Source: Candidatus Bathyarchaeota archaeon
GTDB taxonomy: Archaea > Thermoproteota > CALKCG01 > B24 > DRYS01
DNA: 64,000 nt
Direction: 5' to 3'
Assembly (NCBI GenBank): GCA_018396535.1
Contig: JAGTQC010000007.1
Location: 598-64,597, forward strand
The notes below the pieces were generated by a model, which did not search any database, was not told where the DNA came from, and saw only the letters and a program-made list of their open reading frames with translations. This document shows, in pieces, positions 24,194 to 60,596 of the stretch (positions within the stretch are counted from its first letter, which is position 1; the number at the start of each line of letters is the position of its first letter). Made by a program: the position numbers and the translations under genes.

Positions 24194-24268
24194 GGTCCGG
24201 TAGCTCAGCCTGGCTGGAGCACCAGCTTGGTAAGCTGGGGGTCGCGGGTTCAAATCCCGCCCGGACCT
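24194..24268 (+). tRNA. tRNA-Thr (anticodon GGT)
   Basis: I folded it by hand as a cloverleaf. Acceptor GGTCCGG/CCGGACC, D stem GCTC/GAGC, anticodon stem CCAGC/GCTGG with loop TTGGTAA, T arm GCGGG-TTCAAAT-CCCGC. No intron and no encoded CCA. Confidence 0.85.
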
Positions 24269-24453
24269 CTAACCCTGAAGATAAAGGTATAGATTCCAAA
24301 GTTTATCCTTCCTATTGATGGTACCCTAGAGGTATCTCCTACAGGTTGAAAGTATCAGCTATCATTATAGTGGGATTAAATAAGGAGGCAGCTTGTAAAA
24401 AGTTATATACCAAAAGCTTTTGGCGATACATAAAGGTGAAAGGTTTATCGTAG

Positions 24454-27086: not shown

Positions 27087-29036
27087 ATGACGGGTAGCTT
27101 TATGGATTCCTCACAATGTATTGGACGAAGTTTGAGTAAAATGGAGAAGGTAGATGAGTATATCGATATTCTAAGAGGGAGGATGGATGAAGAGGATTTC
27201 TGTAAGCTTTCTAGGATAAGTAATCCTGATGTTTATAGGTTCATAGCTGAGGCTATCGAGCTCTGCGATCCTAGGGATGTATTCATCTGTAGTGATACAG
27301 CTGATGAGCTTGAGTATATTAGACGTATGGCTATAGTTAGCCGTGAGGAGCATCCTCTAGCTACTCCTGGTCATACTTATCATTTCGATGGGTACTATGA
27401 TCAAGGTAGGGATCGTGAAGTAACGAAGTTTCTCGTACCTAAGGGTGATTTCCTAAGTCCTGCTTTAAACCAGATAGATAGGGATGAGGGGTTAAGGGAA
27501 ATCTTCGATCTTCTTAGAGGATCTATGAGGGGGCGTACTATGATAGTTAGATTCCTGATCCTAGGTCCTGAGGATTCCATATTTACGATACCCTGTATGG
27601 AGTGTACAGATTCATGGTATGTAGCTCACTCTGTAAGTCTCCTATACCGTAGCGGATATAGAACGTTCACTCGTATGAAGCCTAGTACAGAGTTCTTTAA
27701 AACACTACATTCTGCAGGTGAGCTAGATGAGAGGATGGTAAGCGTTAATTATAGTAAGAAGCGTATATACATAGATTATATCACTAATACCGTTTACAGC
27801 GTTAATACTCAGTATGCAGGTAATTCTATAGGTTTTAAGAAGCTTGCTCTTCGTTTAGCTATACGTAAAGCTCACAGTGAAGGATGGCTTGCTGAACATT
27901 TTATGATAATGGGTGTGCATGGACCTGGTGGTCGTAAAACGTACATAGCAGGGGCTTTTCCCAGCGCGTGTGGTAAAACATCTACCGCTATGCTTCCAGG
28001 AGAAACTATACTAGCTGATGATATAGCTTACGTACGTAACATCGATGGGGTATGCCGAGCTGTCAATGCCGAAATCGGTATATTCGGTATACTCAAGGAT
28101 ATTAATCCGGTAGATGATCCACTCCTATACAAAGTTCTTACGAGTCCAGGTGAGATAATATTCTCTAACGTCTTGGTTAAGGATGGTAAGCCTTGGTGGC
28201 TAGGTATGGGGTGTGATGTACCGGATGAAGGTGAAAATTATAGTGGTAGATGGTTTAAAGGTAAGATAGGCCCGGATGGTAAAGAGGTGCCTCCGGCAAG
28301 TGAGAATGCTCGTTATACTATATCTTTAAAGATGCTACCTAATTGTGATCCTGAATTGGATAACCCGCTAGGTGTTGAGCTTGGAGCTATAATCTATGGA
28401 GGTAGGGATTATAGAGCTTATGTACCAGTACAGCAAGCTTTTAGTTGGGAGCATGGTGTAGTAGCTTACGGGGCTTCCTTAGAAACAGAGACAACATTCG
28501 CTTTAGTCGAGGAGAAGGGTAGATACGAGATAAATGTTATGAGTATACAGGATTTTCTATCCATACCGTTAGATCAGTATATAAGGAATTACATAGATTT
28601 CGGTAGGAAACTTGTGAAGAAACCATTGATTTTCGGAGTGAACTATTTCCTAAGGGATCTTAGGACAGGTGAATTTCTAAACGATCGGAGGGATAAGCAT
28701 GTATGGATAAAATGGATTGAACTACGCGTACATAGAGATGTTAAAGCTTTGAAGACTCCTACAGGTCTAATACCTAGATACGAAGATCTTGTTATATTAT
28801 TCAAGCGAGTGTTAGGTAAGAGTTATGATTACAACGATTATGAGAGACAGTTTACGATTCGTATACCTGAAAATCTGCGCAAAATCGAGCGTGTACTAGA
28901 ATTCTGGAAGACTAAAGTCCTAAATACACCTCTCGAACTACTTCGTATACTGGATGAACAGGCTAAACGTTTGATCGAGTATAGAGAGCGGTATGGCGAC
29001 TATGTACCTCCAGATAGATTCGAAGAAGAGGAATAA
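27087..29036 (+). CDS. pckG: phosphoenolpyruvate carboxykinase (GTP)
   Basis: 649 aa. Kinase-1a P-loop FPSACGKTSTAML and the other GTP-PEPCK conserved blocks. The true start may be an internal Met about 20 codons downstream. Confidence 0.9.
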   Translation: MTGSFMDSSQCIGRSLSKMEKVDEYIDILRGRMDEEDFCKLSRISNPDVYRFIAEAIELCDPRDVFICSDTADELEYIRRMAIVSREEHPLATPGHTYHFDGYYDQGRDREVTKFLVPKGDFLSPALNQIDRDEGLREIFDLLRGSMRGRTMIVRFLILGPEDSIFTIPCMECTDSWYVAHSVSLLYRSGYRTFTRMKPSTEFFKTLHSAGELDERMVSVNYSKKRIYIDYITNTVYSVNTQYAGNSIGFKKLALRLAIRKAHSEGWLAEHFMIMGVHGPGGRKTYIAGAFPSACGKTSTAMLPGETILADDIAYVRNIDGVCRAVNAEIGIFGILKDINPVDDPLLYKVLTSPGEIIFSNVLVKDGKPWWLGMGCDVPDEGENYSGRWFKGKIGPDGKEVPPASENARYTISLKMLPNCDPELDNPLGVELGAIIYGGRDYRAYVPVQQAFSWEHGVVAYGASLETETTFALVEEKGRYEINVMSIQDFLSIPLDQYIRNYIDFGRKLVKKPLIFGVNYFLRDLRTGEFLNDRRDKHVWIKWIELRVHRDVKALKTPTGLIPRYEDLVILFKRVLGKSYDYNDYERQFTIRIPENLRKIERVLEFWKTKVLNTPLELLRILDEQAKRLIEYRERYGDYVPPDRFEEEE

Positions 29037-39243: not shown

Positions 39244-41754
39244 TTATCTATCCAATACTTCGATAGCTGGTTTATTCATGTTGATCCATGCATCTTTAGC
39301 TGTAATCTTTGCTTTCCTAGGATATTCCTCTACCTCCACCTCTACTGCGACCGGGAATGGTATCAGTGAACCTAGACCCCAGAATAATGCTTCATGATCA
39401 GCTAATCCTGGTAGATAGTCTGACAATCTCTCATTACTATATTCTGTATATTTGAGTATCGCTTCTTGATCGTTTCCACTCATAAGTCTAAAACATGCTA
39501 TCGTATTACACTGCGATATTATCGACTTAGATATATACGCTGGCCTCTGTGTTATAAATATGAATCCTACATTATACCCTCCAGCTTGACTTACAGCTTC
39601 TATCAATTCCTTATCCACACCGATCTTTTCAGGATTACCTACCTCTATCTTCAATCCTTTCTCCGGTGTGAAGTATTGTGCCTCCTCTATAACGAATATG
39701 ACGGCGAAATCCCCTTCATCCCTTCTACTTAGAGCATAGTCTACAACCCTGGATACTATATGGCGTACAGTTATATGCTGAGCATCTATATCCGTATCTA
39801 TAGATAGATCTACTATGACGATCGGTGTTGCTCTACATACATCCACTATATCTATATACTCGTATCCCTCATCAAGGAAATCACCCCTCCTCTCTAGAGC
39901 CCAGCGTATAAGATTCAAATTATAACTATTACTACGACTACTAATCATCGGAGCTATACGATTAACCTCTCTGAGTAGAGATGATCTATTAACATCTTCA
40001 CCCCTAGCTTTCAGCGATTCTATAGCTTCAGTTATTAAGCGGCCTGCAGAGGATGATGGATCTAGGTTTAATCTAGATGCTATAAGCTTACCCTTTAGCA
40101 TAGCTGATTTAGGTAGGAATAATCTGTATGGATAGATTTTCCCACCAAACTTAGTTAGAGCTGTATACTCGCATCTACGGTCTAGAATTATAAATCTAGG
40201 CTGAGGCTCCATCTTAGAAGCCTTAGCTATAAGACTAACTACGAAGCTAGATTTACCACTACGAGTATTATGACAGAAAACCCCACCTAAACCTGCCACG
40301 AAATTTTCATAGCTAGGAATGGATAGATCATATACAAATTCGTAGTCGTAGTCTACTAAATCTATCTTCGATATCCTAACTAGAGCTAGATCGCTTTGAA
40401 AGGGTTCACGATCGTATCCGTTAGTTATAAGCTTAAGATAGGATATCTCCGATACTAGCTTTTCGCTACGTATTAAACCTAAGCTTAGAAGTTGGGTTAG
40501 AGTTTCGAGAAGTGATCTGAGGATAGGAGGTTTAACGTTGAAGAGTAGTGTAGGTATATGTGGACTGTCATCTGAAGGTTTTATACTATTAAAGAATGAA
40601 CTTAACGCCCTATTCTTCAACTTGACCTCTATGTATTCACGTAAATAATCGATAGAGAAATCATAGATAGGTATAATCGATCTAATGTTAGATACTATCG
40701 ATATTACATCATCGTATACATGTCTCGGTATTCTGAAGATAACCTCATCTAGAGTACTATACCCGAATACGATATAGTATGCTATCATTCTAGCGATATC
40801 TTCGTTTAAAGCTATCTTAAGCTGTATACATCTATCTTCGCTATACGTATAAGCTAAATCTAAAGACTCTATATACGATGCTGGTCTAGGTATGAATAGA
40901 GGTACCAGTATAGGATCACCCGGCTTTAGATTATAAGCTTCTATAGCCTCTATCCTCGAATCCCTCATAGTAAAGACAGAGTGGGAAGGTGTAACCGTTA
41001 CTACACGTCCATCCTCAAGTTGTATCCTAATCATAGGTCCGCTATACCTATGCCTTACAACGCTTCTCACAGGGCGCCATTCTAACCTAAGAGTTTCTGG
41101 ATTAAACGCTGGGACATAAACTTCCTCATTCAACTCTATCTCACCTTCAGAATCGTTATTAAAGAATCTATCTACAAAGCACCCTATCTCCTCTACTCTA
41201 ACCTCCCCTCTAAGCATGTATACGATAGGCTCCCAGTACGCTACACTCATACCAGCCACGAACATATGCCCTTTAGCTATAGAATTGAGGTCGAGATATA
41301 TCGGAACATCAGACCCCTTCAACTTACCTATGCGTATCGGGAAGCAATCCCTTCTACCGCTCTTCGTTATTTCCATATAGAATTCTTGTAGTTCATATGG
41401 TTCAGGCTGGTATACTGGATCCCATGTTCCAGGTGCACATTCTAACCTAACCCACTTCCCATCACTACGTATATAGCCTAACGCTTCTGCGAAGGCTACA
41501 TCATACTCTAATCCTTTACCATACTGAGCCTTCTCCCCCTTCTTACCAGCTATAGGTCCAAATCCGCCTAACCCCATCTCAGGATTATATGGGGTTACTT
41601 TGAATACCCTAAGAAGAACGGGCGTGAATGTGTCACCGCTTAATGGATGTTTAATAAAGTAATATCCGTTAACTACGACTTTATACCCTTCTCTAACTAC
41701 GAACGGTATTACCTTCTGATCGCATCCAGATAGTACATAGCCAATTTCGATCAA
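39244..41754 (-). CDS. herA: HerA-family (DUF87) hexameric ATPase/helicase carrying an intein in its Walker A P-loop
   Basis: 836 aa. N-terminal HAS-barrel, then KGHMFVAGM, then the intein, then TRSGKSSFVVSLIAK (split P-loop). Walker B-like VIFVIEEAQYF and the HerA C-terminal block GFIFITQRPAYISKSIISQCNT. The extein totals about 509 aa, which is HerA-sized. Confidence 0.8.
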   Translation of the reverse strand: MIEIGYVLSGCDQKVIPFVVREGYKVVVNGYYFIKHPLSGDTFTPVLLRVFKVTPYNPEMGLGGFGPIAGKKGEKAQYGKGLEYDVAFAEALGYIRSDGKWVRLECAPGTWDPVYQPEPYELQEFYMEITKSGRRDCFPIRIGKLKGSDVPIYLDLNSIAKGHMFVAGMSVAYWEPIVYMLRGEVRVEEIGCFVDRFFNNDSEGEIELNEEVYVPAFNPETLRLEWRPVRSVVRHRYSGPMIRIQLEDGRVVTVTPSHSVFTMRDSRIEAIEAYNLKPGDPILVPLFIPRPASYIESLDLAYTYSEDRCIQLKIALNEDIARMIAYYIVFGYSTLDEVIFRIPRHVYDDVISIVSNIRSIIPIYDFSIDYLREYIEVKLKNRALSSFFNSIKPSDDSPHIPTLLFNVKPPILRSLLETLTQLLSLGLIRSEKLVSEISYLKLITNGYDREPFQSDLALVRISKIDLVDYDYEFVYDLSIPSYENFVAGLGGVFCHNTRSGKSSFVVSLIAKASKMEPQPRFIILDRRCEYTALTKFGGKIYPYRLFLPKSAMLKGKLIASRLNLDPSSSAGRLITEAIESLKARGEDVNRSSLLREVNRIAPMISSRSNSYNLNLIRWALERRGDFLDEGYEYIDIVDVCRATPIVIVDLSIDTDIDAQHITVRHIVSRVVDYALSRRDEGDFAVIFVIEEAQYFTPEKGLKIEVGNPEKIGVDKELIEAVSQAGGYNVGFIFITQRPAYISKSIISQCNTIACFRLMSGNDQEAILKYTEYSNERLSDYLPGLADHEALFWGLGSLIPFPVAVEVEVEEYPRKAKITAKDAWINMNKPAIEVLDR
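40267..41247 (-). mobile_element. intein (~327 aa) with a degenerate LAGLIDADG-like endonuclease region, inserted between the G and T of the HerA P-loop
   Basis: N-terminal block-A-like SVAYWEPIVYMLRGEVRVEEIG. Block B DGRVVTVTPSHSVF. C-terminal blocks F/G DYEFVYDLSIPSYENFVAGLGGVFCHN, followed by Thr as the +1 extein residue. The central region IAYYIVFGYST…LSLGLIRSEK looks like decayed LAGLIDADG motifs. An alternative N boundary is the Cys in IGCFVDRFF (about 305 aa). Confidence 0.7.
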
Positions 41755-42869
41755 GGCTTTAAGCCTCCATTATCTGTTAAAGCCCAATATTCTCCATGCT
41801 GAAGTAGGAGGAAGTTTAATTCTTCAGATGTAAGCTCCCCCCTCTTAACTAGTTCTACAGCTTTAGCGAAGAAATTTAGAGTATGGATGTTAGAGAATGG
41901 TTTACTTATCCTCGTATACCTATCAGCTTCATGTATAGGGTATGGTATACCCATAACGTTTGCAGATGCTATTATAAGCGAGATAGCTTCCTCGAATCTA
42001 TCTAGGTTGAAGCTTGGAATCTCTATCCTGAAGGGTATTATCCAAGTTTTAACATAACTACTATAGATCTCCGCCATACATACATCTATACTAAGATCTC
42101 TAGCTATTCTAGCATACGATTCTGAGACTTTATTTCTTATAGGGAACGGCTCGGTATAATCGCCTTCATTCATTATCAGGCTTAGGAAAGTTACATCTCT
42201 AAACTTATCATAGCCTAGAAGACTACCATAATAATTCATACAGCTACGTTTAACAAAACCTAAAACTAGGATATCGTTCTCCATACATACTCTGAGTAAT
42301 TCTAAAGCTTGCATAACAGTATATGTGAAATCGTATCTGTAATCGCTAGAATCGGAATTGTTGGGATGAAGTCTAGGATTCAATACTATACCTCCATCTA
42401 TTATTAAGTAATTCGGTCTCCAGAGTTCTACAGCTCTTCTTGCTGCATAATACTCTAAAGCCATATGGAGGAGATTCTCTCTCCTCTCAGGTTCATCATC
42501 GACAGCCCATATATCTGGTGGGCCTGCTATACAGAGAGGCTCGCCTTTAAGCTCCATACCCTCGAATAATACGGCTACAGCATTGTATATTGGTACGTAT
42601 GCGAATCTGAAATGTACACCGTTATGTCCAGCATCGACTCCGACTATACGTTTAGAAGCTAGAAGACCTTTATCCACTAGGCAATTCTTAATTCTTATAA
42701 AGTTCTTCAAACTCTCAGCTACATGCCTACACTCCTTTACATATCCTCTAAACCTTTCTATGAGAAGATCGGTACCCTTTTCTATCATATCCTGGTATAG
42801 TTCAGAGTAGACTAGTTCATGATCCATATTATAGATGGATCTTATACGTAGGTTATTGTTGGTTAACAT
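41751..42869 (-). CDS. nurA: NurA-family 5'-3' nuclease
   Basis: 372 aa. NurA-like aspartate motifs IVGVDAGHNG and YLIIDGGIVLN. Lies immediately upstream of herA with a 4-nt overlap, the usual nurA-herA translational coupling. Confidence 0.6.
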   Translation of the reverse strand: MLTNNNLRIRSIYNMDHELVYSELYQDMIEKGTDLLIERFRGYVKECRHVAESLKNFIRIKNCLVDKGLLASKRIVGVDAGHNGVHFRFAYVPIYNAVAVLFEGMELKGEPLCIAGPPDIWAVDDEPERRENLLHMALEYYAARRAVELWRPNYLIIDGGIVLNPRLHPNNSDSSDYRYDFTYTVMQALELLRVCMENDILVLGFVKRSCMNYYGSLLGYDKFRDVTFLSLIMNEGDYTEPFPIRNKVSESYARIARDLSIDVCMAEIYSSYVKTWIIPFRIEIPSFNLDRFEEAISLIIASANVMGIPYPIHEADRYTRISKPFSNIHTLNFFAKAVELVKRGELTSEELNFLLLQHGEYWALTDNGGLKP

Positions 42870-42925: not shown

Positions 42926-43372
42926 ATGTTGTTGAATGCTCAACAATCAAAAAACGAGGTGAGGGATGGATATAAAAAGGATGAGAGGGTACATATTCGT
43001 TTGAAATTTGGGGATCTTGAGGTTGATGTTGAATGTAGACAAGAACAACTCAAAGATGTTATAGATACATTTTTATCAAGTCTAAGAGAGAAGGGTATAC
43101 CTACCATACCTTCTACGACAGCAGCTAGAGTCAGCTATATTGGAGGTGAACCTAAAACTTGTCGTGACGTTATATTGAATCTATGGAGGAACGGATGGTT
43201 TTCAGTAGGTAGGAGTCTCTCAGAAGTAGATGAGGAGATGTCTAGGATGGGATATCACTACAATAGGAGTGCTATAGCTCATAGTTTAGCAGATCTAGTT
43301 AGGGAGGGAATCCTAGCTAGAGAAGGTAGGAAGGGCAGTTATAGATACCTACAGAAGAGACCGCCTATCTAG
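42926..43372 (+). CDS. small winged-helix DNA-binding protein, paralogue family member 1
   Basis: 148 aa. N-terminal beta-rich module with an FGDLEVDVE motif and a C-terminal wHTH (SAIAHSLADLVREGILAREGRKGSYRYL). Same architecture as the proteins at 44206 and 44729. Confidence 0.45.
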   Translation: MLLNAQQSKNEVRDGYKKDERVHIRLKFGDLEVDVECRQEQLKDVIDTFLSSLREKGIPTIPSTTAARVSYIGGEPKTCRDVILNLWRNGWFSVGRSLSEVDEEMSRMGYHYNRSAIAHSLADLVREGILAREGRKGSYRYLQKRPPI

Positions 43373-43394: not shown

Positions 43395-44078
43395 CTAATC
43401 CTCTACTTTGGATAATCCTAGTATATGTGCTATCTTATCGAAGAGTAGGGATAGCTTCTCTACATCCGTATTTTCATCTATAGTAAATACCAGTTGTAAC
43501 TGTAGGTTAATACCGATTCTCGTCGACGGCTCCTTCATGGTGTATTCCCTTCTCGATCTCCTAACCTCCTTAACCTGCTCTACAGATCTAGGCCTCTCCT
43601 CAGTCTTCTCCCACTCGAATGCATAGCTGAGCATATCTAGGAAACTTTGTACGCCTACTAAATCGACTTTAGCATCTCCAACCATCAAGGGTATTTCGGT
43701 CATCAATTTACGTCGATCAAACCCTTCTGTTTCAATCTTCATAGCTATATCCTTAATGACTTCGTTCTTGATAAGTAAGTCTTGGAGAGCTTTCCTAGCT
43801 ATATCAGAGTTTGGGTCTATCCTATAGGCTGCTACAAACTTGATAGCATCTTCTGCTAGCTTATACTTCTTTGGTGTATCTTTAGATTCTTCTAGAAAAC
43901 CCCATGACTTGAAGAATGCATTATTACGACTTATATTTTTCTCATCTACATCAGCTTTCTCCGCTACATCTTTAACAGAGATATAGTCTTTATCAGCTCC
44001 AGCGTTTAGGTAGCTTACAAGTATTTGGCAAAGCTTCTCCCAGCTTAATCTACGTGGTAATTTAAGCTCTTGCATCAA
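43395..44078 (-). CDS. hypothetical protein with an N-terminal wHTH-like module
   Basis: 227 aa. The N-terminus ISVKDVAEKADVDEKNISRNNAFFKSWGFLEE resembles a winged helix. The C-terminal half is unknown. Confidence 0.4.
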   Translation of the reverse strand: MMQELKLPRRLSWEKLCQILVSYLNAGADKDYISVKDVAEKADVDEKNISRNNAFFKSWGFLEESKDTPKKYKLAEDAIKFVAAYRIDPNSDIARKALQDLLIKNEVIKDIAMKIETEGFDRRKLMTEIPLMVGDAKVDLVGVQSFLDMLSYAFEWEKTEERPRSVEQVKEVRRSRREYTMKEPSTRIGINLQLQLVFTIDENTDVEKLSLLFDKIAHILGLSKVED

Positions 44079-44205: not shown

Positions 44206-44739
44206 ATGCCGCAGTACGAGTATGAATCAGAATACAGCGATGAGATAGAGGTTATAGTTAGGAAGGGTGATCTACATATCGAATTTAGAGGATCTACAGA
44301 TAGCGTCATCAGGAGTCTCCTTAAATTCATAAGTGAGATACATCCCACTTGGTTTTTAGCTTCGAAGCTAGCGTTAAAGCTAGATTTAGTAGAGGTATTC
44401 GAGAAAGCATCAGGTGTGATAGCTGTAGGCCCGGAAGGACCTATGATAGTAGTCGATAGGGGTAAGCTGACAGATGTGGAGTTGATATGGTTATCTCTAG
44501 CTAAGGCTTGGATAGCATATCATATAGGCTTAACTGAAGATTATACTGTAACGAGTAGAGATATACAGAGGGAGACGGGGATTAAGCCAGGTACGATATC
44601 AGCTCGTTTAAGCGAGTTATCGAGTCAAGGATATCTCGATAAGCCTAGGAGAGGAGTTTACAAGCTTACATCTCTAGGAGTAAAAAGACTTATCGAAGAT
44701 ATAATACCTGAGATTAAAGGTAAGATAGGTGTTGAGTGA
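44206..44739 (+). CDS. small winged-helix DNA-binding protein, paralogue family member 2
   Basis: 177 aa. GDLHIEFRGSTDSVIRSLLKFISEIHP N-module and C-terminal wHTH (TISARLSELSSQGYLDKPRRGVYKLTSLG). A clear paralogue of the next gene. Confidence 0.45.
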   Translation: MPQYEYESEYSDEIEVIVRKGDLHIEFRGSTDSVIRSLLKFISEIHPTWFLASKLALKLDLVEVFEKASGVIAVGPEGPMIVVDRGKLTDVELIWLSLAKAWIAYHIGLTEDYTVTSRDIQRETGIKPGTISARLSELSSQGYLDKPRRGVYKLTSLGVKRLIEDIIPEIKGKIGVE

Positions 44740-45220
44740 GGATAAGCTATACGTACATATAGAGTATGGGGATCTAAAAGCTGATTTCATAGGGTCAGCT
44801 GATGAAGTATTGAGATCTATAGTAAAGTTCCTATCGAAGATTCTGCCTAGCTTGAAGATAGTAGAGGAGCTTATCTATAAGCCTAGTTTAGGAGAGCTAG
44901 CTGAAGCTCTTAAGGGCATCGTTAAGATAAGCGATGAAGTACCGATACTATGCTCTCAAACAAACTTCGCGACATACGACTTAATCCTAGTAGGCTTAGC
45001 AGCTAAGTATCTGGCATCTCATATAGGTTTATCTGAGGATGAGAGTATGGATGCTAGAGAATTATCGGTATTCACGAATAAATCTGAGAAGACTATTAGG
45101 AATATCTTACCGAAGCTCTTAGATAGAGGGCTAGCTAAGAGGACGGAGAAGGGTAGGTATGCGATCACGGTATCAGGGCTTAGGAGAGTTGAAGAGTTAT
45201 TAGCAAGCAAGACTAGCTAG
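44729..45220 (+). CDS. small winged-helix DNA-binding protein, paralogue family member 3
   Basis: 163 aa. GDLKADFIGSADEVLRSIVKFLSKILPS N-module and C-terminal wHTH (TIRNILPKLLDRGLAKRTEKGRYAITVSG). Overlaps the previous gene by 11 nt, so this is a tandem duplication. Confidence 0.45.
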   Translation: MLSEDKLYVHIEYGDLKADFIGSADEVLRSIVKFLSKILPSLKIVEELIYKPSLGELAEALKGIVKISDEVPILCSQTNFATYDLILVGLAAKYLASHIGLSEDESMDARELSVFTNKSEKTIRNILPKLLDRGLAKRTEKGRYAITVSGLRRVEELLASKTS

Positions 45221-45226
45221 AAAAAT

Positions 45227-47206
45227 CTACATCCTCTCTAACGGTCTTATGCCTAGTATCCTGAGTGCAGAACCTAATGTAGATTTAAACGCGTATACAA
45301 GTTTTAACCTAGCTATCTTCAATTCTAGAGGTTCAGCTTTAAGTACTGGAAGCTTATCGTAGAATGAGTTAAATTTCATAGCTAACTCATTAGCATACTC
45401 TGCAACTATATGTACGGCTAGGTTTTCTGAAGAGTACCATATGATCTCAGGATACTTAGAGATATGTATTAGTAGATCCTCCTCTAACCTATCGTTTAGT
45501 ATGGTTGGATCGAAATCTGCATAGATATAATCTACATCAGCCTTAGATAATATACTAGATGATCTAGCGTATGCATACTGTAGGAATGGACCGCTATTCA
45601 TCTCGAAGTTTAAAACCTTATCCCAACTAAACACTATATCCCTTTCAGGTGATACGCTAATTAATGCATACTTAACAGCTCCTACAGCTATAGCTTCAGC
45701 TATCCTCTCAGCCTCCCTAGGATCGATATTAGGCGAACGTTTCCTAACCTCTGTTAAAGCTCTAACTCTAGCTTCATCCAAGACATCATCTAACGTTACT
45801 ATACGTCCCCTCCTACTAGACATTCTATAACCTGGAAGCTTTACGAGACCGTAGAATAGAGGTTTATACCTATCTAAAACCCTATCTACGCCTAGAGCTG
45901 AGAGAGTTATCATAAGCTGTATTTGAGGTAGCTTCTGATCCATACCTATTACGGTTATCGATAAATCGTACTGCTTAAGCTTACGGAAGGCATAAGCTAT
46001 ATCTCTCGTAGTGTATAGTGTCGTACCATCAGCTCTTGTAAGGGTTAGTGAAGGTAACTCTAATCCTATATCTATACGTTCCTCTAATCCTAGATCCCTA
46101 GCTGCTTCAGCTACATCGAATATTAAAGCCCCCTCCTCTAACCTACAGTATGACGTAGATTTCAACATCGATAGTATCCTATCCACTTCACCGCTCCATA
46201 CAATATCACTCTCCCAATCCCATGAATCAAAATCCACATCTACACGCGATAAAGTCTCTTTAAACCCTTCTAAACATAGTGTTACAACCTCCCTAACGAT
46301 TCCAACTATATCCTCATCTAAACGCTTCTCGTATAACCTGTTTATCTCAGCTATCCTCCCCTCCGGATCTTTATCCGACTCGATAGATTCTAGAAGTCTA
46401 TCAAAGAGCTTCTCATTTCTACTCCTAAGCTCCGCTGCTATAGCTACCCATTCATCTAATCGCGATGAGATCTTCATATACTCATCTTCGGATTGCTTAG
46501 ATCTACACGACTCTAGCTCAGATTTAAGACGTCTAATCTCTAGTATACATGATATCGAAGCATATATGTAGCCTAAGAAGCTATCAGGCTTCTCTTCGAA
46601 TCTAGGTTTACCTAGAAGATTGTAGCCGTAGGCTAGTATCGATACCTGCCTACCTACATCATCTATGTAGAAGTGTCTATGGACATCATAACCTCTAGCC
46701 TCTAGTAGTGCTGCGATAGAATCACCTAGGAAGCTATTCCTAGCATGACCTATACCTATGGGGTGTATAGGATTCACACTCGTATGCTCTACTATAACTC
46801 TTAGCCTCCTATCCGATTCTAATCGACCCCACTCCACACCTAGAGCTTGTATAGATGATATGAGGAGTTTGAAGAAGCTAGGTTTATCTAGGTAGAAGTT
46901 GAGGTAGCCTGGGCTAGCTACATCTACTTTAGCGATAAACCTTCTATCAGCTGTATCTATTCTAGATTTCACTTCTAAAGCTAGATCTTGTGGGTTTAAG
47001 CCGGTTTTTCTAGCTAGCATCATACATATAGGAGTGGATAACTCACCGTATATGTGGGATGGTGGGGATTCGAATACTATATCAGTAGGCTTTATATCGA
47101 AACCTGATAGTGACTGGTATACTAGGTATCTACATTCATCTTCGAATAGCTTCCACGGTCTTCTCGAAACCTCTATGATTCCATACCCCCTCCTTCGATC
47201 ATCCAC
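45227..47206 (-). CDS. argS: arginyl-tRNA synthetase
   Basis: 659 aa. Class I HIGH-type motif (PIHPIGIGHARN) and the C-terminal DALR anticodon-binding helical domain. Confidence 0.9.
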   Translation of the reverse strand: MDDRRRGYGIIEVSRRPWKLFEDECRYLVYQSLSGFDIKPTDIVFESPPSHIYGELSTPICMMLARKTGLNPQDLALEVKSRIDTADRRFIAKVDVASPGYLNFYLDKPSFFKLLISSIQALGVEWGRLESDRRLRVIVEHTSVNPIHPIGIGHARNSFLGDSIAALLEARGYDVHRHFYIDDVGRQVSILAYGYNLLGKPRFEEKPDSFLGYIYASISCILEIRRLKSELESCRSKQSEDEYMKISSRLDEWVAIAAELRSRNEKLFDRLLESIESDKDPEGRIAEINRLYEKRLDEDIVGIVREVVTLCLEGFKETLSRVDVDFDSWDWESDIVWSGEVDRILSMLKSTSYCRLEEGALIFDVAEAARDLGLEERIDIGLELPSLTLTRADGTTLYTTRDIAYAFRKLKQYDLSITVIGMDQKLPQIQLMITLSALGVDRVLDRYKPLFYGLVKLPGYRMSSRRGRIVTLDDVLDEARVRALTEVRKRSPNIDPREAERIAEAIAVGAVKYALISVSPERDIVFSWDKVLNFEMNSGPFLQYAYARSSSILSKADVDYIYADFDPTILNDRLEEDLLIHISKYPEIIWYSSENLAVHIVAEYANELAMKFNSFYDKLPVLKAEPLELKIARLKLVYAFKSTLGSALRILGIRPLERM

Positions 47207-49933: not shown

Positions 49934-50007
49934 AGCCCGGTGGTGCAGCCTGGTAAGCATGGAGGCCTTTGGAGCCTCCGACGGGAGTTCGAATCTCCCC
50001 CGGGCTA
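49934..50007 (+). tRNA. tRNA-Gln (anticodon TTG)
   Basis: Hand-folded cloverleaf. Acceptor AGCCCGG/CCGGGCT with an A1:U72 pair, which is typical of archaeal tRNA-Gln. Anticodon stem GAGGC/GCCTC with loop CTTTGGA, T arm GGGAG-TTCGAAT-CTCCC, discriminator A. No intron. Confidence 0.8.
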
Positions 50008-57488: not shown

Positions 57489-60400
57489 ATGCTATCTATA
57501 AGAGAGATAGAGAGGAGGCTCATAGATTTTCTAGCATCATCGTTTATAGATTTCAGATCGATAGATTCTTGGATACATAACGGCTCGAGGATAACCCTCC
57601 CATACTTCCTACGAGTCTCACCGGATGATATACTTAGATTCGAGAATACGTTGAATCTAGATAGTATAGGTGGAGCTAGATGGCTTCTACGCATAGATAT
57701 AACCGGTAATGGTCTACTAATAGTGGATGGCAAACCCTACCAGGGTATAGATAACTATCATCGTATAGCTATACTAGAGCCTGGTATTAGACATATAGCT
57801 CTAGAATCATCATCGCGTAGGTTATTCGGTGAGAATCCATGGATGTTCTCATTCATAGCTTCGAATACATCCGCCGTACTATGGGATGAATTCTCACTAG
57901 CTCTAACCCTCATAGATCTACTATCCCTCTCCCAGAGTTGTAGAGATATAACGCCATACCTATCCAAAGCCGCATCCTACATAGATCTAGCACCTAGCGT
58001 ATCGCAGTTATACGCTCTAGCTAGAACACTCTACGGATTCCTATTCATAGAAGGATCACCAGAGTATAGCGCGTTAAGATGGGATGTAGGCTATATAGCA
58101 TCAGTATATGGTGAAAAGGTTATCGATGGAACGCTAGAGGATATACCAAAGCCTAGTATCGACGAGGTACGTGAAACTGGGAGGAGTGTATTAGAAGCTT
58201 TAAACGATATACTCGTAGATGATGATAGGGATGGAGCTATCTACCTATTCGGTCATAGCCATATAGATACAGCTTGGCTCTGGCCATTCAGCGAGACTAA
58301 GAGGAAGATTAAGAGAACATTCTCAACCATAGCTAGATTAGCTAGCCTAGGCTATAGGTTCACATATGTTCAGAGCGGGGCTCAAAACTATCGATGGATA
58401 GAGGATGATGAAGCTCTATTCGATACGGTGAAGAGGATGGTGGAGGATGGTTTATGGCTTCCTGTAGGCGGTATGTGGGTTGAATCAGATACACAGCTAA
58501 TCTCAGGTGAATCCCTAGCTAGACAATTCCTATACGGGCAGAGGTATTTCGAAGAGAAGTTTGGTAGAAGGTGTAGGATAGGATGGCTTCCAGATAGCTT
58601 CGGATTCTCAGCTCAGCTACCTCAGGTTATGCGTAAGAGTGGTATCGAGATATTCGTTACACATAAGGTTATGTGGAACGATACTAATGAATTCCCCTAT
58701 CATGCATTCATATGGGAGGGTCTTGATGGGAGTAGAGTATTAGGTCATATAATAGTATCATCATATAACGGTATCGTAACGGCTTCAGAGCTCTACAATA
58801 TGTGGAGTAGGTATAAGCAGAAGGGTATAGCACCTGCAGTATACTCCTATGGCTATGGTGATGGTGGTGGCGGACCGACCTTCACTATGCTAGAGAGGTT
58901 GAAGATATTGAAGAAGTTGAGATTCCTACCTAGACTTATCGATTCCCCGAGTGAGGATGAGTATATAGAAGCTTTAAGAAGGGTTGGAGAATCCCTACCT
59001 GTATGGAGGGGTGAGATATACAACGAGTATCATAGAGGAGTCTATACTACGAATATACGTATTAAACAGCTTATGAGTAGAGCTGAATGCGAAGCTATAT
59101 GGGCTGAAACAGTATCTACCATAGCTGATATACTAGGGGTAGCAGTATACCCATACATAGAGGTTAAGGATGCATGGGAGAGGATACTTAGATGCCAATT
59201 CCACGATGTACTCCCAGGCTCATCGAATAGGGAAGTTTACGAAGAAGCCTACGATGATCTAGGTAGAGCTTTAGAGAATCTATCTAGGATAACAGAATCC
59301 TCGCTTATGAGTATAGCTAATTCTATAGATGCTAGAACTGGCTGTATAATAGTTTTCAATCGTCTACCATGGATGGTTAAAGCTATCCTAGAGCTTCCTA
59401 AATCCTTCTACGAAACCTACGATGGTAAGCCTGTGGATACGCAGTTAATGGATAACTATTCTATAATCCTAGTAGATATACCGCCGCTAGGATATACTAC
59501 CCTAATACCTGTAGAGAAAGGCTCTACGGCTAGCGGTGTTATAGTAGAGGAGGTATCCGACGGCGTTATCCTAGAGAACGATTACCTAAAGGTTAAGATA
59601 GATCGTGAAGGATATATCGAGAGTATATACGATAAGGAGCTTAGAGAAGAGTTTCTCTCAGATATAAGTAACGTTATCGAGATTCATGTAGATAAGCCTG
59701 GACGCTTCGATGCATGGGATATAGAGAAGACAGCTGTAGAAGCTCATGGTGTAAAACCAGAGGTGGTGGAGGGTGCTAGTATAGTTATGAAGGGTCCGAT
59801 AGCTGCTAGGGTTAGGAGCCGGTATAGGTATAGAAGCTCCACCATAGATCAGTATATAACGATGTATAAGGGTTCTAGACTTATAAGAGTGGATGTGGAG
59901 ATGGATTGGTGTGAGAAGAATCGTCTAGTTAAAGTATGGTTTAAACCAGATGTGAAAACTGATCATGCATACTTCGAGATACCATTCGGCGTAGTCGAGA
60001 GATCTGCTATAATAAGAGATTCTCGTGATGAAGCTATGTTCGAAGTACCTGCGCTTAGATGGATGGATATATCAGATGGATGTAAAGGTTTAGCTATAAT
60101 ATCCCCGGATAGGCATGGATATACTGTTAGAGATGGTAGGATAGGTTTAAGCCTAGTTAAATCACCATCCATGCCTAACCCATGGTCTGATCTAGGATTC
60201 ATAAAAGCTACATACTATGTATACCCGCATCAAGGTGATTATAGAGTTGGGGAGGTTTATAAGAGAGCATACGAGGTTTGGAGTGGAGCTAGATGGGTTA
60301 CTAAGGATAGTATTGGAGGATTCCTACCACCTACAGGTAGCTTCATAGAGGTTCCGAATGGTGTTGTAATAGAGTGTATTAAACTTAGCGAGGATAGGAG

Positions 60401-60596
60401 GGGTATCGTAGTTAGATTATACGAAGTAGATGGTAGTGGGAAGAGCTTCGATCTAAAATTACCCGGATACTTCGATATATACGAATCGAATATACTAGAG
60501 GATATAGTGGAGAGGATAGCTACGAATAAGGATACTGTAAACCTAAGGTTTAAGCCATTCGAAGTGAAAACTATAGTATTATCGAGAAGCTTCTAG
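57489..60596 (+). CDS. family 38 glycoside hydrolase, alpha-mannosidase
   Basis: 1035 aa. The GH38 catalytic region includes HSHIDTAWLW plus the conserved central and C-terminal beta domains. Confidence 0.85.
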   Translation: MLSIREIERRLIDFLASSFIDFRSIDSWIHNGSRITLPYFLRVSPDDILRFENTLNLDSIGGARWLLRIDITGNGLLIVDGKPYQGIDNYHRIAILEPGIRHIALESSSRRLFGENPWMFSFIASNTSAVLWDEFSLALTLIDLLSLSQSCRDITPYLSKAASYIDLAPSVSQLYALARTLYGFLFIEGSPEYSALRWDVGYIASVYGEKVIDGTLEDIPKPSIDEVRETGRSVLEALNDILVDDDRDGAIYLFGHSHIDTAWLWPFSETKRKIKRTFSTIARLASLGYRFTYVQSGAQNYRWIEDDEALFDTVKRMVEDGLWLPVGGMWVESDTQLISGESLARQFLYGQRYFEEKFGRRCRIGWLPDSFGFSAQLPQVMRKSGIEIFVTHKVMWNDTNEFPYHAFIWEGLDGSRVLGHIIVSSYNGIVTASELYNMWSRYKQKGIAPAVYSYGYGDGGGGPTFTMLERLKILKKLRFLPRLIDSPSEDEYIEALRRVGESLPVWRGEIYNEYHRGVYTTNIRIKQLMSRAECEAIWAETVSTIADILGVAVYPYIEVKDAWERILRCQFHDVLPGSSNREVYEEAYDDLGRALENLSRITESSLMSIANSIDARTGCIIVFNRLPWMVKAILELPKSFYETYDGKPVDTQLMDNYSIILVDIPPLGYTTLIPVEKGSTASGVIVEEVSDGVILENDYLKVKIDREGYIESIYDKELREEFLSDISNVIEIHVDKPGRFDAWDIEKTAVEAHGVKPEVVEGASIVMKGPIAARVRSRYRYRSSTIDQYITMYKGSRLIRVDVEMDWCEKNRLVKVWFKPDVKTDHAYFEIPFGVVERSAIIRDSRDEAMFEVPALRWMDISDGCKGLAIISPDRHGYTVRDGRIGLSLVKSPSMPNPWSDLGFIKATYYVYPHQGDYRVGEVYKRAYEVWSGARWVTKDSIGGFLPPTGSFIEVPNGVVIECIKLSEDRRGIVVRLYEVDGSGKSFDLKLPGYFDIYESNILEDIVERIATNKDTVNLRFKPFEVKTIVLSRSF

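What the first reader, a model, noticed from the sequence alone, without database searches (positions are those of the whole stretch)
40267..41247. Intein splitting the Walker A P-loop of a HerA-family ATPase
The HerA P-loop appears in two pieces: KGHMFVAGM, then about 327 aa, then TRSGKSSFVVSL. The intervening segment has intein blocks A, B, F and G (…TPSHSVF…, …VYDLSIPSYENFVAGLGGVFCHN followed by a Thr nucleophile). It also has what looks like a decayed LAGLIDADG homing-endonuclease core.

This is a classic intein position, in a catalytic P-loop. HerA is not among the commonly listed intein hosts. The decayed endonuclease motifs suggest a fixed, non-mobile intein. The N-terminal boundary is ambiguous: either Ser170, which gives GM|TRSGKS, or Cys192.
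Basis: partly seen in the sequence, partly recalled or inferred. Interest (0 to 1): 0.6.

Follow-up and report, generated by a model that had tools for sequence, protein, structure and literature searches.

The report
Degenerate intein splitting a HerA P-loop
A self-splicing protein insert (intein) with a broken homing nuclease sits inside the ATP-binding loop of a HerA-type DNA-pumping ATPase of a Bathyarchaeia archaeon; it is real and cleanly bounded, but it is an ordinary member of a well-known class.

Summary
The observation and the interpretation both hold. Window 40267..41247 (minus strand) encodes 327 aa, S170 to N496, of one 836-aa ORF (39244..41754). Fourteen intein-free orthologues read ...AGM|TRSGKS... 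without a gap, so the insertion is exactly these 327 aa. Ser170 is the N-terminal boundary. Cys192 is rejected because it is Arg in the orthologous inteins.

Intein profiles score above their curated cut-offs, and the class-1 splicing residues are present and invariant among the orthologous inteins aligned: Ser1, TPSH, VYDLS, CHN and Thr+1. With the intein removed, the host matches DUF87 end to end. Its model (pLDDT 86) superposes on Sulfolobus HerA and on the Thermococcus HerA-NurA complex. A NurA gene lies immediately upstream.

The middle of the intein has a LAGLIDADG fold but is degenerate. The block C acid is Phe, the block E "GD" is deleted, and two accessory regions are missing compared with 534-544-aa inteins at the same site in other HerA/DUF87 proteins. 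dN/dS is 0.05-0.08 for the extein, 0.06-0.19 for the splicing domain and 0.18-0.49 for the nuclease remnant. dS is similar throughout, which points to long vertical inheritance.

This is a fixed, immobile, probably splicing-competent intein: a new member of a known kind. Splicing was not tested.

The parts
39244..41754 (-). HerA-like (DUF87) ATPase precursor ORF, 836 aa, TTG start. Identical to NCBI MBS7642736.1, 'DUF87 domain-containing protein', from a Ca. Bathyarchaeia MAG.
   Evidence: GGAGG lies about 10 nt upstream of the TTG, and a TTGA overlap joins this start to the NurA stop.
41248..41754 (-). N-extein, residues 1-169. It holds the N-terminal beta-barrel region and the first strand of the ATPase core, and ends ...HMFVAGM.
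40267..41247 (-). Intein, 327 aa, S170 to N496
40882..41247 (-). N-terminal part of the HINT splicing domain (intein 1-122), containing Ser1 (block A) and block B TPSH (40981..40992).
   Evidence: TIGR01445 model position 7 aligns to residue 176, so position 1 is S170. S1, T86 and H89 are invariant in A2 and A3. dN/dS is 0.13-0.19.
40390..40881 (-). Degenerate LAGLIDADG homing-endonuclease remnant (intein 123-286). The block C relic IARMIAYYIVFGYS lies at 40756..40797 and has Phe where relatives have the catalytic Glu. The block E relic LLETLTQLLSLGL lies at 40474..40512 and has lost the GD segment.
   Evidence: No Pfam hit at E<=1. Alignment with full-size allelic inteins. The whole-intein AF2 model matches endonuclease-bearing inteins: 2cw7 TMq 0.71, 7qsu 0.68, 7qst 0.66. 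dN/dS is 0.18-0.49.
40267..40389 (-). C-terminal part of the HINT domain (intein 287-327), with block F VYDLS (40321..40335) and block G CHN (40267..40275).
   Evidence: TIGR01443 matches 473-497. D307, H326 and N327 are invariant. dN/dS is 0.06-0.16.
39244..40266 (-). C-extein, residues 497-836 plus the stop codon. It begins with Thr+1 and the rest of Walker A (TRSGKS, 40249..40266) and contains Walker B (VIFVIEEAQ) and the conserved TQRPAY/SQCNT motifs.
41751..42869 (-). NurA-like nuclease gene, translationally coupled to the HerA-like gene and its operon partner.
   Evidence: Pfam NurA E 3.2e-13. The same pairing is present in L001-L004.

Best explanation
The 327 codons encode a class-1 intein that interrupts Walker A of a HerA-like hexameric ATPase between Met169 and Thr497.

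Inferred mechanism, following standard intein chemistry:
1. The precursor folds.
2. Ser170 undergoes an N-O acyl shift.
3. The N-extein is transferred to the hydroxyl of Thr497.
4. Asn496 cyclises, assisted by His495, and releases the intein.
5. An O-N shift restores the peptide bond and gives ...HMFVAGM-TRSGKSS..., an intact P-loop.

Until splicing happens the ATP-binding loop is broken, so the HerA-NurA machine should be inactive.

The intein once carried a LAGLIDADG homing endonuclease. In this clade that domain has lost both catalytic acids, most of its second half-domain and its accessory DNA-binding regions. The element can therefore no longer home and is inherited vertically as a fixed passenger. 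Selection on HerA function keeps the splicing domain working.

What is shown here: the boundaries, the homology, the fold, the degeneracy of the nuclease and the pattern of selection. What is inferred: that splicing takes place, and that the endonuclease is inactive.
For: Boundaries. Fourteen intein-free orthologues are contiguous across AGM|TRSGKS, and M169 and T497 are invariant. TIGR01445 position 1 maps to S170. Cys192 is Arg in P0002, P0004, P0006 and P0007.

Intein identity. Pfam PF14890 scores 72 bits against a cut-off of 35.8. PDB profile hits are PI-PkoII at 1e-28, TFIIB mini-inteins at about 1e-24, and KlbA. The AF2 model (pLDDT 78.6) matches endonuclease-bearing inteins by Foldseek at E 6e-18 to 3e-13.

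Catalytic residues. S1, T86-x-x-H89, D307, H326 and N327 are invariant across inteins only 27-60% identical to the window's. The residue after the intein is Thr or Ser in each host of that set.

Host. Removing the intein raises the DUF87 score from 40.6 to 61.2 bits and extends the match to model positions 1-219 of 220. The spliced model (pLDDT 86) matches SsoHerA 4d2i at E 2e-30 and TkoHerA-NurA 9x1m at TMq 0.73.

Degenerate endonuclease. There is no LAGLIDADG Pfam hit, although most of the DUF87-hosted relatives scanned do hit LAGLIDADG_3. The block C Glu is Phe, the block E GD is deleted, and accessory regions of roughly 70 and 150 aa are absent.

Fixation. dS is similar in intein and extein. 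dN/dS is 0.05-0.08 for the extein, 0.06-0.19 for the HINT parts and 0.18-0.49 for the remnant. GC3 is 0.336 in the intein and 0.331 in the extein. Synteny is conserved in L001-L003.
Against: No splicing experiment exists for this intein or any HerA intein that I could find.

Thr+1 combined with Ser1 is a comparatively weak pair of nucleophiles (general knowledge, not tested here). Splicing could therefore be slow or conditional.

The C-terminal 13 residues of the intein model have pLDDT below 50.

The dS values against L001 and L002 are about 1, near saturation, so those ratios are rough.

dN/dS of 0.18-0.49 in the nuclease remnant is below 1. The remnant is therefore not evolving freely and may retain some role.
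Confidence: 0.88

Rival explanations
1. The intein is still an active, mobile homing element. Its LAGLIDADG domain cuts intein-free HerA alleles and copies the intein into them.
For: The predicted fold still resembles endonuclease-bearing inteins. Presence/absence polymorphism exists elsewhere in the family: P0285 carries a 537-aa intein while P0009 has none, at 88-94% extein identity.
Against: Phe replaces the catalytic Glu of block C. The block E GD segment and the second half-domain's beta-sheet are deleted, and both accessory regions are absent. There is no LAGLIDADG profile hit. Every listed relative whose exteins were compared and found 87-99% identical carries the intein, and dS is similar in intein and extein, which indicates vertical descent.
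Confidence: 0.04
2. The insert is a dead intein or a lineage-specific insertion domain that is never removed. The gene would then encode an ATPase-dead or otherwise repurposed HerA.
For: Splicing was not tested. Ser1/Thr+1 is a weak nucleophile pair (general knowledge). The precursor ORF is intact either way.
Against: The splicing residues S1, TxxH, D, HN and +1 Thr are invariant across this clade, and the HINT parts are under purifying selection (dN/dS 0.06-0.19). The exteins, including the split Walker A, are under strong purifying selection (dN/dS 0.05-0.08), which makes sense only if a working ATPase is produced. Intein-free orthologues have no insertion at this point.
Confidence: 0.05
3. 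The intein starts at Cys192, giving a 305-aa intein with the more usual Cys1 nucleophile.
For: Cys is the commonest intein nucleophile.
Against: Cys192 is Arg in four orthologous inteins. Residues 170-191 are absent from every intein-free orthologue. They align to positions 1-22 of intein profiles and of the TFIIB and PkoII inteins. Splicing from Cys192 would leave 22 extra residues inside Walker A.
Confidence: 0.01
4. The intein has been co-opted as a conditional post-translational switch. Splicing, and so activation of HerA-NurA, would respond to temperature, redox state, metals or DNA damage. The retained nuclease remnant might contribute to this.
For: The position in the P-loop guarantees that the precursor is inactive. 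The intein has persisted for a long time after the nuclease died, and the remnant has dN/dS below 1. Published precedents for conditional splicing include the P. horikoshii RadA intein (PMC4513877, PMC5790916) and the mycobacterial DnaB inteins (PMC6195587), listed. A contribution of the nuclease domain to splicing was suggested for the TliVMA and MvuTFIIB inteins (PMC8966425).
Against: Nothing in the sequence specifically indicates regulation. Persistence is equally well explained by the difficulty of deleting an intein precisely from an essential motif. dN/dS below 1 in the remnant can reflect folding constraints alone.
Confidence: 0.1

Closest known systems
PhoVMA intein (Pyrococcus horikoshii V-ATPase subunit A; PDB 7qst; PMC8966425)
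   Same: It is an archaeal class-1 intein in an ATPase. Its nested LAGLIDADG domain keeps the fold but lacks the catalytic acids in blocks C and E and has a truncated block E. The authors read this as a degenerating endonuclease after fixation. Foldseek TMq is 0.66 to the window intein model.
   Different: The host (V-ATPase A) and the insertion site differ. The window intein has lost more: the beta-sheet of the second half-domain and both accessory regions. It also uses Ser1/Thr+1.
PI-PkoII / Tko Pol-2 intein (PDB 2cw7) and the M. jannaschii / M. vulcanius TFIIB mini-inteins (PDB 5o9j, 5o9i)
   Same: These are the best sequence and fold relatives among solved structures (E 1e-28 and about 1e-24; TMq 0.71). 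They share the N-terminal x-x-Y-x-EPI motif and the C-terminal ENFVAG-GG---HN motif.
   Different: The hosts are DNA polymerase and TFIIB, not an ATPase P-loop. The 2cw7 chain is a 537-aa intein deposited as 'Endonuclease PI-PkoII' / 'intein homing endonuclease II'. The TFIIB structures are mini-inteins with the endonuclease region removed.
P-loop inteins of other ATPases (MCM-a, DnaB-b, RFC-a, RadA, VirB11/KlbA), as surveyed by Novikova et al. 2016 (PMC4760082)
   Same: The intein lies inside Walker A of a ring ATPase that acts on DNA. This is the recurrent pattern the survey describes. The window intein's nearest non-HerA relatives are in MCM and in T2SSE/VirB11 ATPases. In some of the latter the junction is at the equivalent Walker A position, G-x|T-G-x-G-K-T.
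   Different: HerA/DUF87 is not in that paper's top-host tables and is not mentioned in its main text. Its supplementary tables could not be read.
Full-size inteins at the same HerA/DUF87 Walker A site in metagenomic proteins (P0285/P0286 = MBS7617522.1/MBS7611522.1, P0159, P0147, P0136, P0145)
   Same: They share the insertion point (x-x|[TS]-x-x-G-K-S) and homologous splicing blocks (27-36% identity for the three aligned), and all use Ser1...CHN|[ST].
   Different: They are 528-544 aa long. P0147 and P0159 keep the block C Glu, and P0147, P0159 and P0285 keep the block E GD together with the accessory regions. The window intein is a shortened derivative of 327 aa.

Membership tests
Intein (class 1, HINT splicing domain) | Match to curated intein splicing-domain profiles above their cut-offs | tested here: met
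   PF14890 scores 72.1 bits against 35.8. TIGR01445 scores 43.2 against 24.5 and TIGR01443 scores 21.4 against 15.6.
Intein (class 1, HINT splicing domain) | Nucleophile (Cys/Ser) as the first intein residue and Ser/Thr/Cys as the first C-extein residue | tested here: met
   Ser170 is invariant in all inteins aligned in A2 and A3. Thr497 is invariant in all 17 orthologues.
Intein (class 1, HINT splicing domain) | Block B TxxH, block F Asp, and block G penultimate His with terminal Asn | tested here: met
   T255-P-S-H258, D476 within VYDLS, and H495-N496 are present and invariant across inteins 27-60% identical to the window's.
Intein (class 1, HINT splicing domain) | In-frame insertion in a conserved host motif, with intein-free orthologues contiguous across the site | tested here: met
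   Fourteen orthologues read AGM|TRSGKS with a gap of exactly 327 residues. The DUF87 match becomes continuous once the insert is removed.
Intein (class 1, HINT splicing domain) | HINT fold | tested here: met
   The AF2 model (pLDDT 78.6) matches many solved inteins, including mini-inteins at TMt 0.76-0.79.
Intein (class 1, HINT splicing domain) | Autocatalytic excision and ligation of the exteins | not testable with these tools
   This needs expression with western blot or mass spectrometry, or a junction peptide found in proteomics.
LAGLIDADG homing endonuclease (active) | LAGLIDADG alpha-beta-beta-alpha-beta-beta-alpha fold | tested here: inconclusive
   The first half-domain is complete: helix 149-161, strands 162-164 and 168-173, helix 175-188, strands 196-201 and 206-211, helix 213-222. 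The second half keeps only helices 240-255 and 262-278. Foldseek still matches endonuclease-bearing inteins, and matches I-DmoI weakly.
LAGLIDADG homing endonuclease (active) | [quoted passage not shown] | tested here: not met
   Block C reads YYIVFGYS, where relatives read YYAAEGHA or YYLAEGSA and PI-PkoII reads YYVSEGYA. The block E GD segment is deleted.
LAGLIDADG homing endonuclease (active) | Match to the Pfam LAGLIDADG_3 or Hom_end profiles | tested here: not met
   The middle segment gives no hit at E<=1. Most of the DUF87-hosted relatives scanned hit LAGLIDADG_3, at E from 2e-4 to 6e-19.
HerA / FtsK-HerA superfamily ATPase | DUF87 (HerA central) domain with Walker A and Walker B | tested here: met
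   The spliced extein matches PF01935 at 61.2 bits over positions 1-219 of 220. Walker A is GMTRSGKS and Walker B is VIFVIEEAQ. It also matches PADLOC HerA models, best E 3.8e-34.
HerA / FtsK-HerA superfamily ATPase | Overall HerA fold: N-terminal barrel plus RecA-like core plus C-terminal region | tested here: met
   The model (pLDDT 86.2) aligns along its whole length to SsoHerA 4d2i (E 1.8e-30, 510 columns) and to TkoHerA-NurA 9x1m (TMq 0.73).
HerA / FtsK-HerA superfamily ATPase | Adjacent NurA nuclease partner | tested here: met
   The NurA gene (PF09376, E 3e-13) is directly upstream with a 4-nt overlap. The pairing is conserved in L001-L004.
Canonical archaeal double-strand-break repair HerA (equivalog; Mre11-Rad50-HerA-NurA operon) | Score above the NCBIfam equivalog cut-off, and Mre11/Rad50 genes alongside | tested here: not met
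   NF040937 scores 54 bits against 800 and NF040819 scores 42 against 970. The neighbours are an M48 peptidase, an OB-fold protein and unannotated small ORFs; none is Mre11 or Rad50. The host is therefore a HerA-family paralogue, not shown to be the repair HerA.

The most novel reading that the evidence does not exclude
The dead-nuclease intein is kept not only because precise deletion from the P-loop is difficult. Instead it would act as a conditional switch, with splicing sensitive to temperature, redox state, metals or DNA, that gates assembly or activity of the HerA-NurA machine. The nuclease remnant, which is still under purifying selection (dN/dS 0.18-0.49), would take part in that control or in supporting splicing.
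Probability: 0.1. Interest if true: 0.5.

Novelty: new member of a known kind. Interest (0 to 1): 0.27.

Why it matters
The finding adds HerA/DUF87 ATPases to the ring ATPases whose P-loop hosts inteins. Related metagenomic proteins show at least three insertion sites in this family: Walker A, the ISK|S site near the SQCNT motif, and a third site in Woesearchaeota-type DUF87 proteins.

It also gives a well-resolved natural series for the homing-cycle model at one site: empty alleles, inteins of 534-544 aa that mostly keep intact nuclease motifs, and shortened 327-355-aa derivatives with a dead nuclease.

On the practical side, annotation pipelines label the protein only as "DUF87 domain-containing", and the unspliced length and split Walker A could mislead function prediction. 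An intein with Ser1/Thr+1 junctions could be of minor interest for protein engineering.

None of this changes how inteins are understood.

Tried and rejected
- **Cys192 as the intein start.** Rejected.
- **A lineage-specific insertion domain present in intein-free orthologues.** Rejected, because none of the 14 aligned orthologues has any insertion there.
- **Word-index homologue search with the intein alone.** It returned only one truncated self-like protein, P0125, and was uninformative. The exhaustive profile search was needed instead.
- **Longer orthologues P0118-P0124 (603-675 aa).** I suspected mini-inteins, but the extra length is a low-complexity C-terminal tail.
- **Other inteins of this family in the window.** A six-frame search found none. 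The large ORFs scanned with Pfam have none either.
- **Literature.** Searches for intein with HerA, FtsK-HerA, DUF87, NurA or Bathyarchaeota found no report of a HerA intein. The supplementary tables of Novikova 2016 are not held, so absence from that survey is not proven.
- **Recent horizontal acquisition.** Composition gives no signal: GC is 0.384 in the intein and 0.407 in the extein, and GC3 is 0.336 against 0.331.
- **PADLOC scan of NurA and the two unannotated neighbours.** NurA hit no defence-system model, and the ORF at 43395..44078 gave only weak HTH-type hits to CARF/CasR models. No defence role can be assigned.
Full report
**The observation**

Window 40267..41247 on the minus strand translates to 327 residues, SVAYWEP...GGVFCHN. 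They are residues 170-496 of one uninterrupted 836-aa ORF, 39244..41754 on the minus strand, with a TTG start. KGHMFVAGM directly precedes the segment and TRSGKSSFVVSL directly follows it.

The protein is already in public databases as MBS7642736.1, "DUF87 domain-containing protein", from a Candidatus Bathyarchaeia MAG.

**Is it an intein, and where are its ends?**

Curated profiles match above their cut-offs:
- Pfam Intein_splicing: E 5.9e-20, 72 bits against 35.8.
- TIGR01445, the N-terminal splicing region: 43 bits against 24.5.
- TIGR01443, the C-terminal region: 21.4 bits against 15.6, covering residues 473-497.

TIGR01445 model position 7 aligns to residue 176, which places position 1 on Ser170.

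I aligned the protein with 14 intein-free orthologues from other Bathyarchaeia (47-60% identical) and two intein-bearing ones. Every intein-free sequence reads ...AGM|TRSGKS... with a gap of exactly the 327 residues, and M169 and T497 are invariant.

The alternative start, Cys192, is Arg in four orthologous inteins. It would also leave 22 extra residues inside Walker A, so it is rejected.

A profile of four orthologous inteins finds solved inteins by sequence: PI-PkoII 2cw7 at E 1e-28, the TFIIB mini-inteins 5o9j and 5o9i at about 1e-24, and KlbA 2jmz at 2e-15. An AlphaFold model of the intein (pLDDT 78.6) matches endonuclease-bearing inteins by Foldseek:

| PDB entry | Intein | TMq |
|---|---|---|
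| 2cw7 | PI-PkoII | 0.71 |
| 7qsu | TliVMA | 0.68 |
| 7qst | PhoVMA | 0.66 |
| 1dq3 | PI-PfuI | 0.61 |

It also matches many mini-inteins.

The residues needed for class-1 splicing are present: Ser1, block B T-P-S-H, block F Asp (in VYDLS), and block G His-Asn. They are invariant across an alignment that includes inteins only 27-36% identical to this one. The residue after the intein is Thr in all 17 aligned orthologues and Thr or Ser in the more distant hosts.

**The host**

With the intein removed, the 509-aa extein matches Pfam DUF87 (HerA central domain) continuously over model positions 1-219 of 220 at 61 bits. The unspliced protein gives a truncated 40.6-bit match. The extein also matches solved HerA proteins by sequence and PADLOC HerA models, best E 3.8e-34.

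An AlphaFold model of the spliced extein (51-sequence alignment, pLDDT 86.2) places the junction in the loop between strand 164-167 and helix 174-185, the classical P-loop position. The model aligns along its whole length to Sulfolobus HerA 4d2i (E 1.8e-30) and to the Thermococcus HerA-NurA complex 9x1m (TMq 0.73).

A NurA-domain gene (41751..42869, minus strand) lies immediately upstream. Its stop overlaps the HerA start in TTGA, and a GGAGG lies upstream. The NurA-HerA pair recurs at every related locus fetched.

The protein falls far below the NCBIfam equivalog cut-offs for the repair HerA, and none of the flanking genes examined is Mre11 or Rad50. I therefore call it a HerA-family paralogue paired with NurA. 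Its cellular role, whether end resection, defence or something else, is undetermined.

**The endonuclease remnant**

The middle of the intein (residues 123-286) gives no Pfam hit at all. An exhaustive profile search of 1.84 billion representative proteins found 1764 relatives of the intein. Among the best 150, several are HerA/DUF87 proteins with an intein at the same Walker A position but 528-544 aa long: P0285/P0286 (Bathyarchaeota), P0159, P0147, P0136 and P0145.

I aligned P0285, P0159 and P0147 with the window intein. The alignment shows what has been lost:
- Block C reads YYAAEGHA or YYLAEGSA in P0159 and P0147, and YYVSEGYA in PI-PkoII. The window has YYIVFGYS, with Phe in place of the catalytic Glu.
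- The block E "GD" segment is deleted.
- An accessory region of about 70 aa before the endonuclease is absent.
- A region of about 150 aa after the endonuclease is absent.

In the model the first LAGLIDADG half-domain is complete, but the second retains only two helices.

This is the same condition described for the PhoVMA intein, which also lacks both catalytic acids and has a truncated block E. That intein was shown experimentally to be inactive and is interpreted as degeneration after fixation (PMC8966425).

**Evolutionary state**

Three related loci carry the orthologous short intein (327-355 aa) in conserved synteny: ArgRS ... NurA - HerA - M48 peptidase - OB-fold protein - L13e - creatininase - radical SAM. 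These are L003 (exteins 96% identical to the window's) and L001 and L002 (about 90%).

Nei-Gojobori estimates from my own script:

| Region | dN/dS |
|---|---|
| Exteins | 0.05-0.08 |
| HINT, N-terminal part | 0.13-0.19 |
| HINT, C-terminal part | 0.06-0.16 |
| Endonuclease remnant | 0.18-0.49 |

dS is similar in intein and extein: about 0.3 against L003 and about 1 against L001 and L002. The latter values are near saturation, so those ratios are approximate. GC3 is the same in intein and extein, 0.336 and 0.331.

Taken together, this indicates long vertical co-inheritance, strong selection to keep HerA functional and the splicing domain competent, and relaxed but not absent constraint on the remnant.

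Among the 120 orthologue clusters listed, only the window's own clade carries the intein. The next relatives, at 57-60% identity, lack it. Elsewhere in the family P0285 has a 537-aa intein and P0009 has none, although their exteins are 88-94% identical. Gain or loss is therefore recent in that other clade.

**Mechanism**

Shown here: the anatomy, the homology and the pattern of selection.

Inferred from established intein chemistry: an N-O shift at Ser170, transesterification to Thr497, cyclisation of Asn496, and an O-N shift. This yields ...HMFVAGM-TRSGKSS... and restores Walker A. The precursor should be unable to bind ATP productively.

Splicing itself and the inactivity of the nuclease were not tested and cannot be tested with these tools.

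**Comparison with what is known, and novelty**

Inteins inside the P-loops of DNA-handling ring ATPases (MCM, DnaB, RFC, RadA, VirB11) are the textbook pattern (PMC4760082). The window intein's closest non-HerA relatives sit in MCM and in T2SSE/VirB11 ATPases. In some of the latter the junction is at the equivalent Walker A position.

HerA is absent from that survey's main tables and text. Five literature searches found no report of a HerA or DUF87 intein. The survey's supplementary tables could not be read.

On the other hand, the sequence data show HerA/DUF87 inteins in several lineages and at three sites. JGI already labels one orthologue "intein/homing endonuclease".

The finding is correct and tidy, but it is a new member of a known kind and not surprising to a specialist. 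I score interest at 0.27.

The most novel reading that the evidence does not exclude is a conditional-splicing switch on HerA-NurA, with the remnant co-opted for that role. I put its probability at about 0.1.

Noticed in passing
window 39525/39526 (between K743 and S744, ...PAYISK|SIISQCNT...); L002 4001-7957: The orthologue P0126 (1318 aa, JGI metagenome 3300028675) carries the P-loop intein and also a second intein of about 454 aa (CLSGNMM...FLVHN|S) at ISK|S. This second intein hits LAGLIDADG_3. The site is empty in the window's gene.
   Followed up: partly
P0285/P0286 (MBS7617522.1, MBS7611522.1) compared with P0009 / L004: A 537-aa allelic intein occupies the same Walker A site in another Bathyarchaeota clade, while the close relative P0009 has no intein (exteins 88-94% identical). 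This is a presence/absence polymorphism. The block C acid in P0285 is Lys, so this larger intein may also be losing its nuclease activity.
   Followed up: partly
P0180, P0185, P0201 (about 1130-1170 aa; P0292 = MBS3145878.1, Ca. Woesearchaeota): More distant DUF87/HerA proteins carry a related Ser1 intein that hits LAGLIDADG_3 at a third site (...RTVA|S...LHN|SEGRKFG..., after the DUF87 central domain).
   Followed up: partly
top 150 relatives of the intein: In nearly all of the best relatives whose junctions could be read, the intein starts with Ser and a [VIL]-x-Y-x-EP-like motif, ends in HN (mostly CHN), and is followed by Ser or Thr. This large archaeal intein family is spread over MCM, T2SSE/VirB11, DUF87 and other hosts not identified here. 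Ten of the 97 complete copies are followed by GK[ST]. The T2SSE and DUF87 junctions lie at the same relative Walker A position, which hints at movement between P-loops of different ATPase families.
   Followed up: partly
P0125 (515 aa; NCBI locus tag QW695_01980): Another MAG has the same gene truncated 19 residues after the intein (...IAKDSNM). This is probably a frameshift or an assembly error rather than a real split gene.
   Followed up: no
window 41751..41754 and 41755..41770: The NurA stop and the HerA TTG start overlap as TTGA, and a GGAGG lies about 10 nt upstream. This suggests translational coupling of the nuclease and ATPase genes.
   Followed up: yes
window 42926..43372 (+), 43395..44078 (-), 44206..45220 (+): Small conserved ORFs with no Pfam family, or only weak HTH-type hits (CARF/CasR-like, AbiEi_4/MarR-like), lie between NurA and ArgRS. 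Their order is conserved in L002 and L003. Their function is unknown, and a regulatory or defence link to NurA-HerA was not examined.
   Followed up: no
window, whole: The rest of the window looks like ordinary archaeal chromosome: AlaRS (5421..8126), TmcA/NAT10-like acetyltransferase (8171..10447), GTP-PEPCK (27087..29036), ArgRS (45227..47206), GH38 alpha-mannosidase (57489..60596), GH2 (60622..63138), tRNA-Thr (24194..24269) and tRNA-Gln (49934..50007). GC is about 0.37-0.44 throughout.
   Followed up: partly
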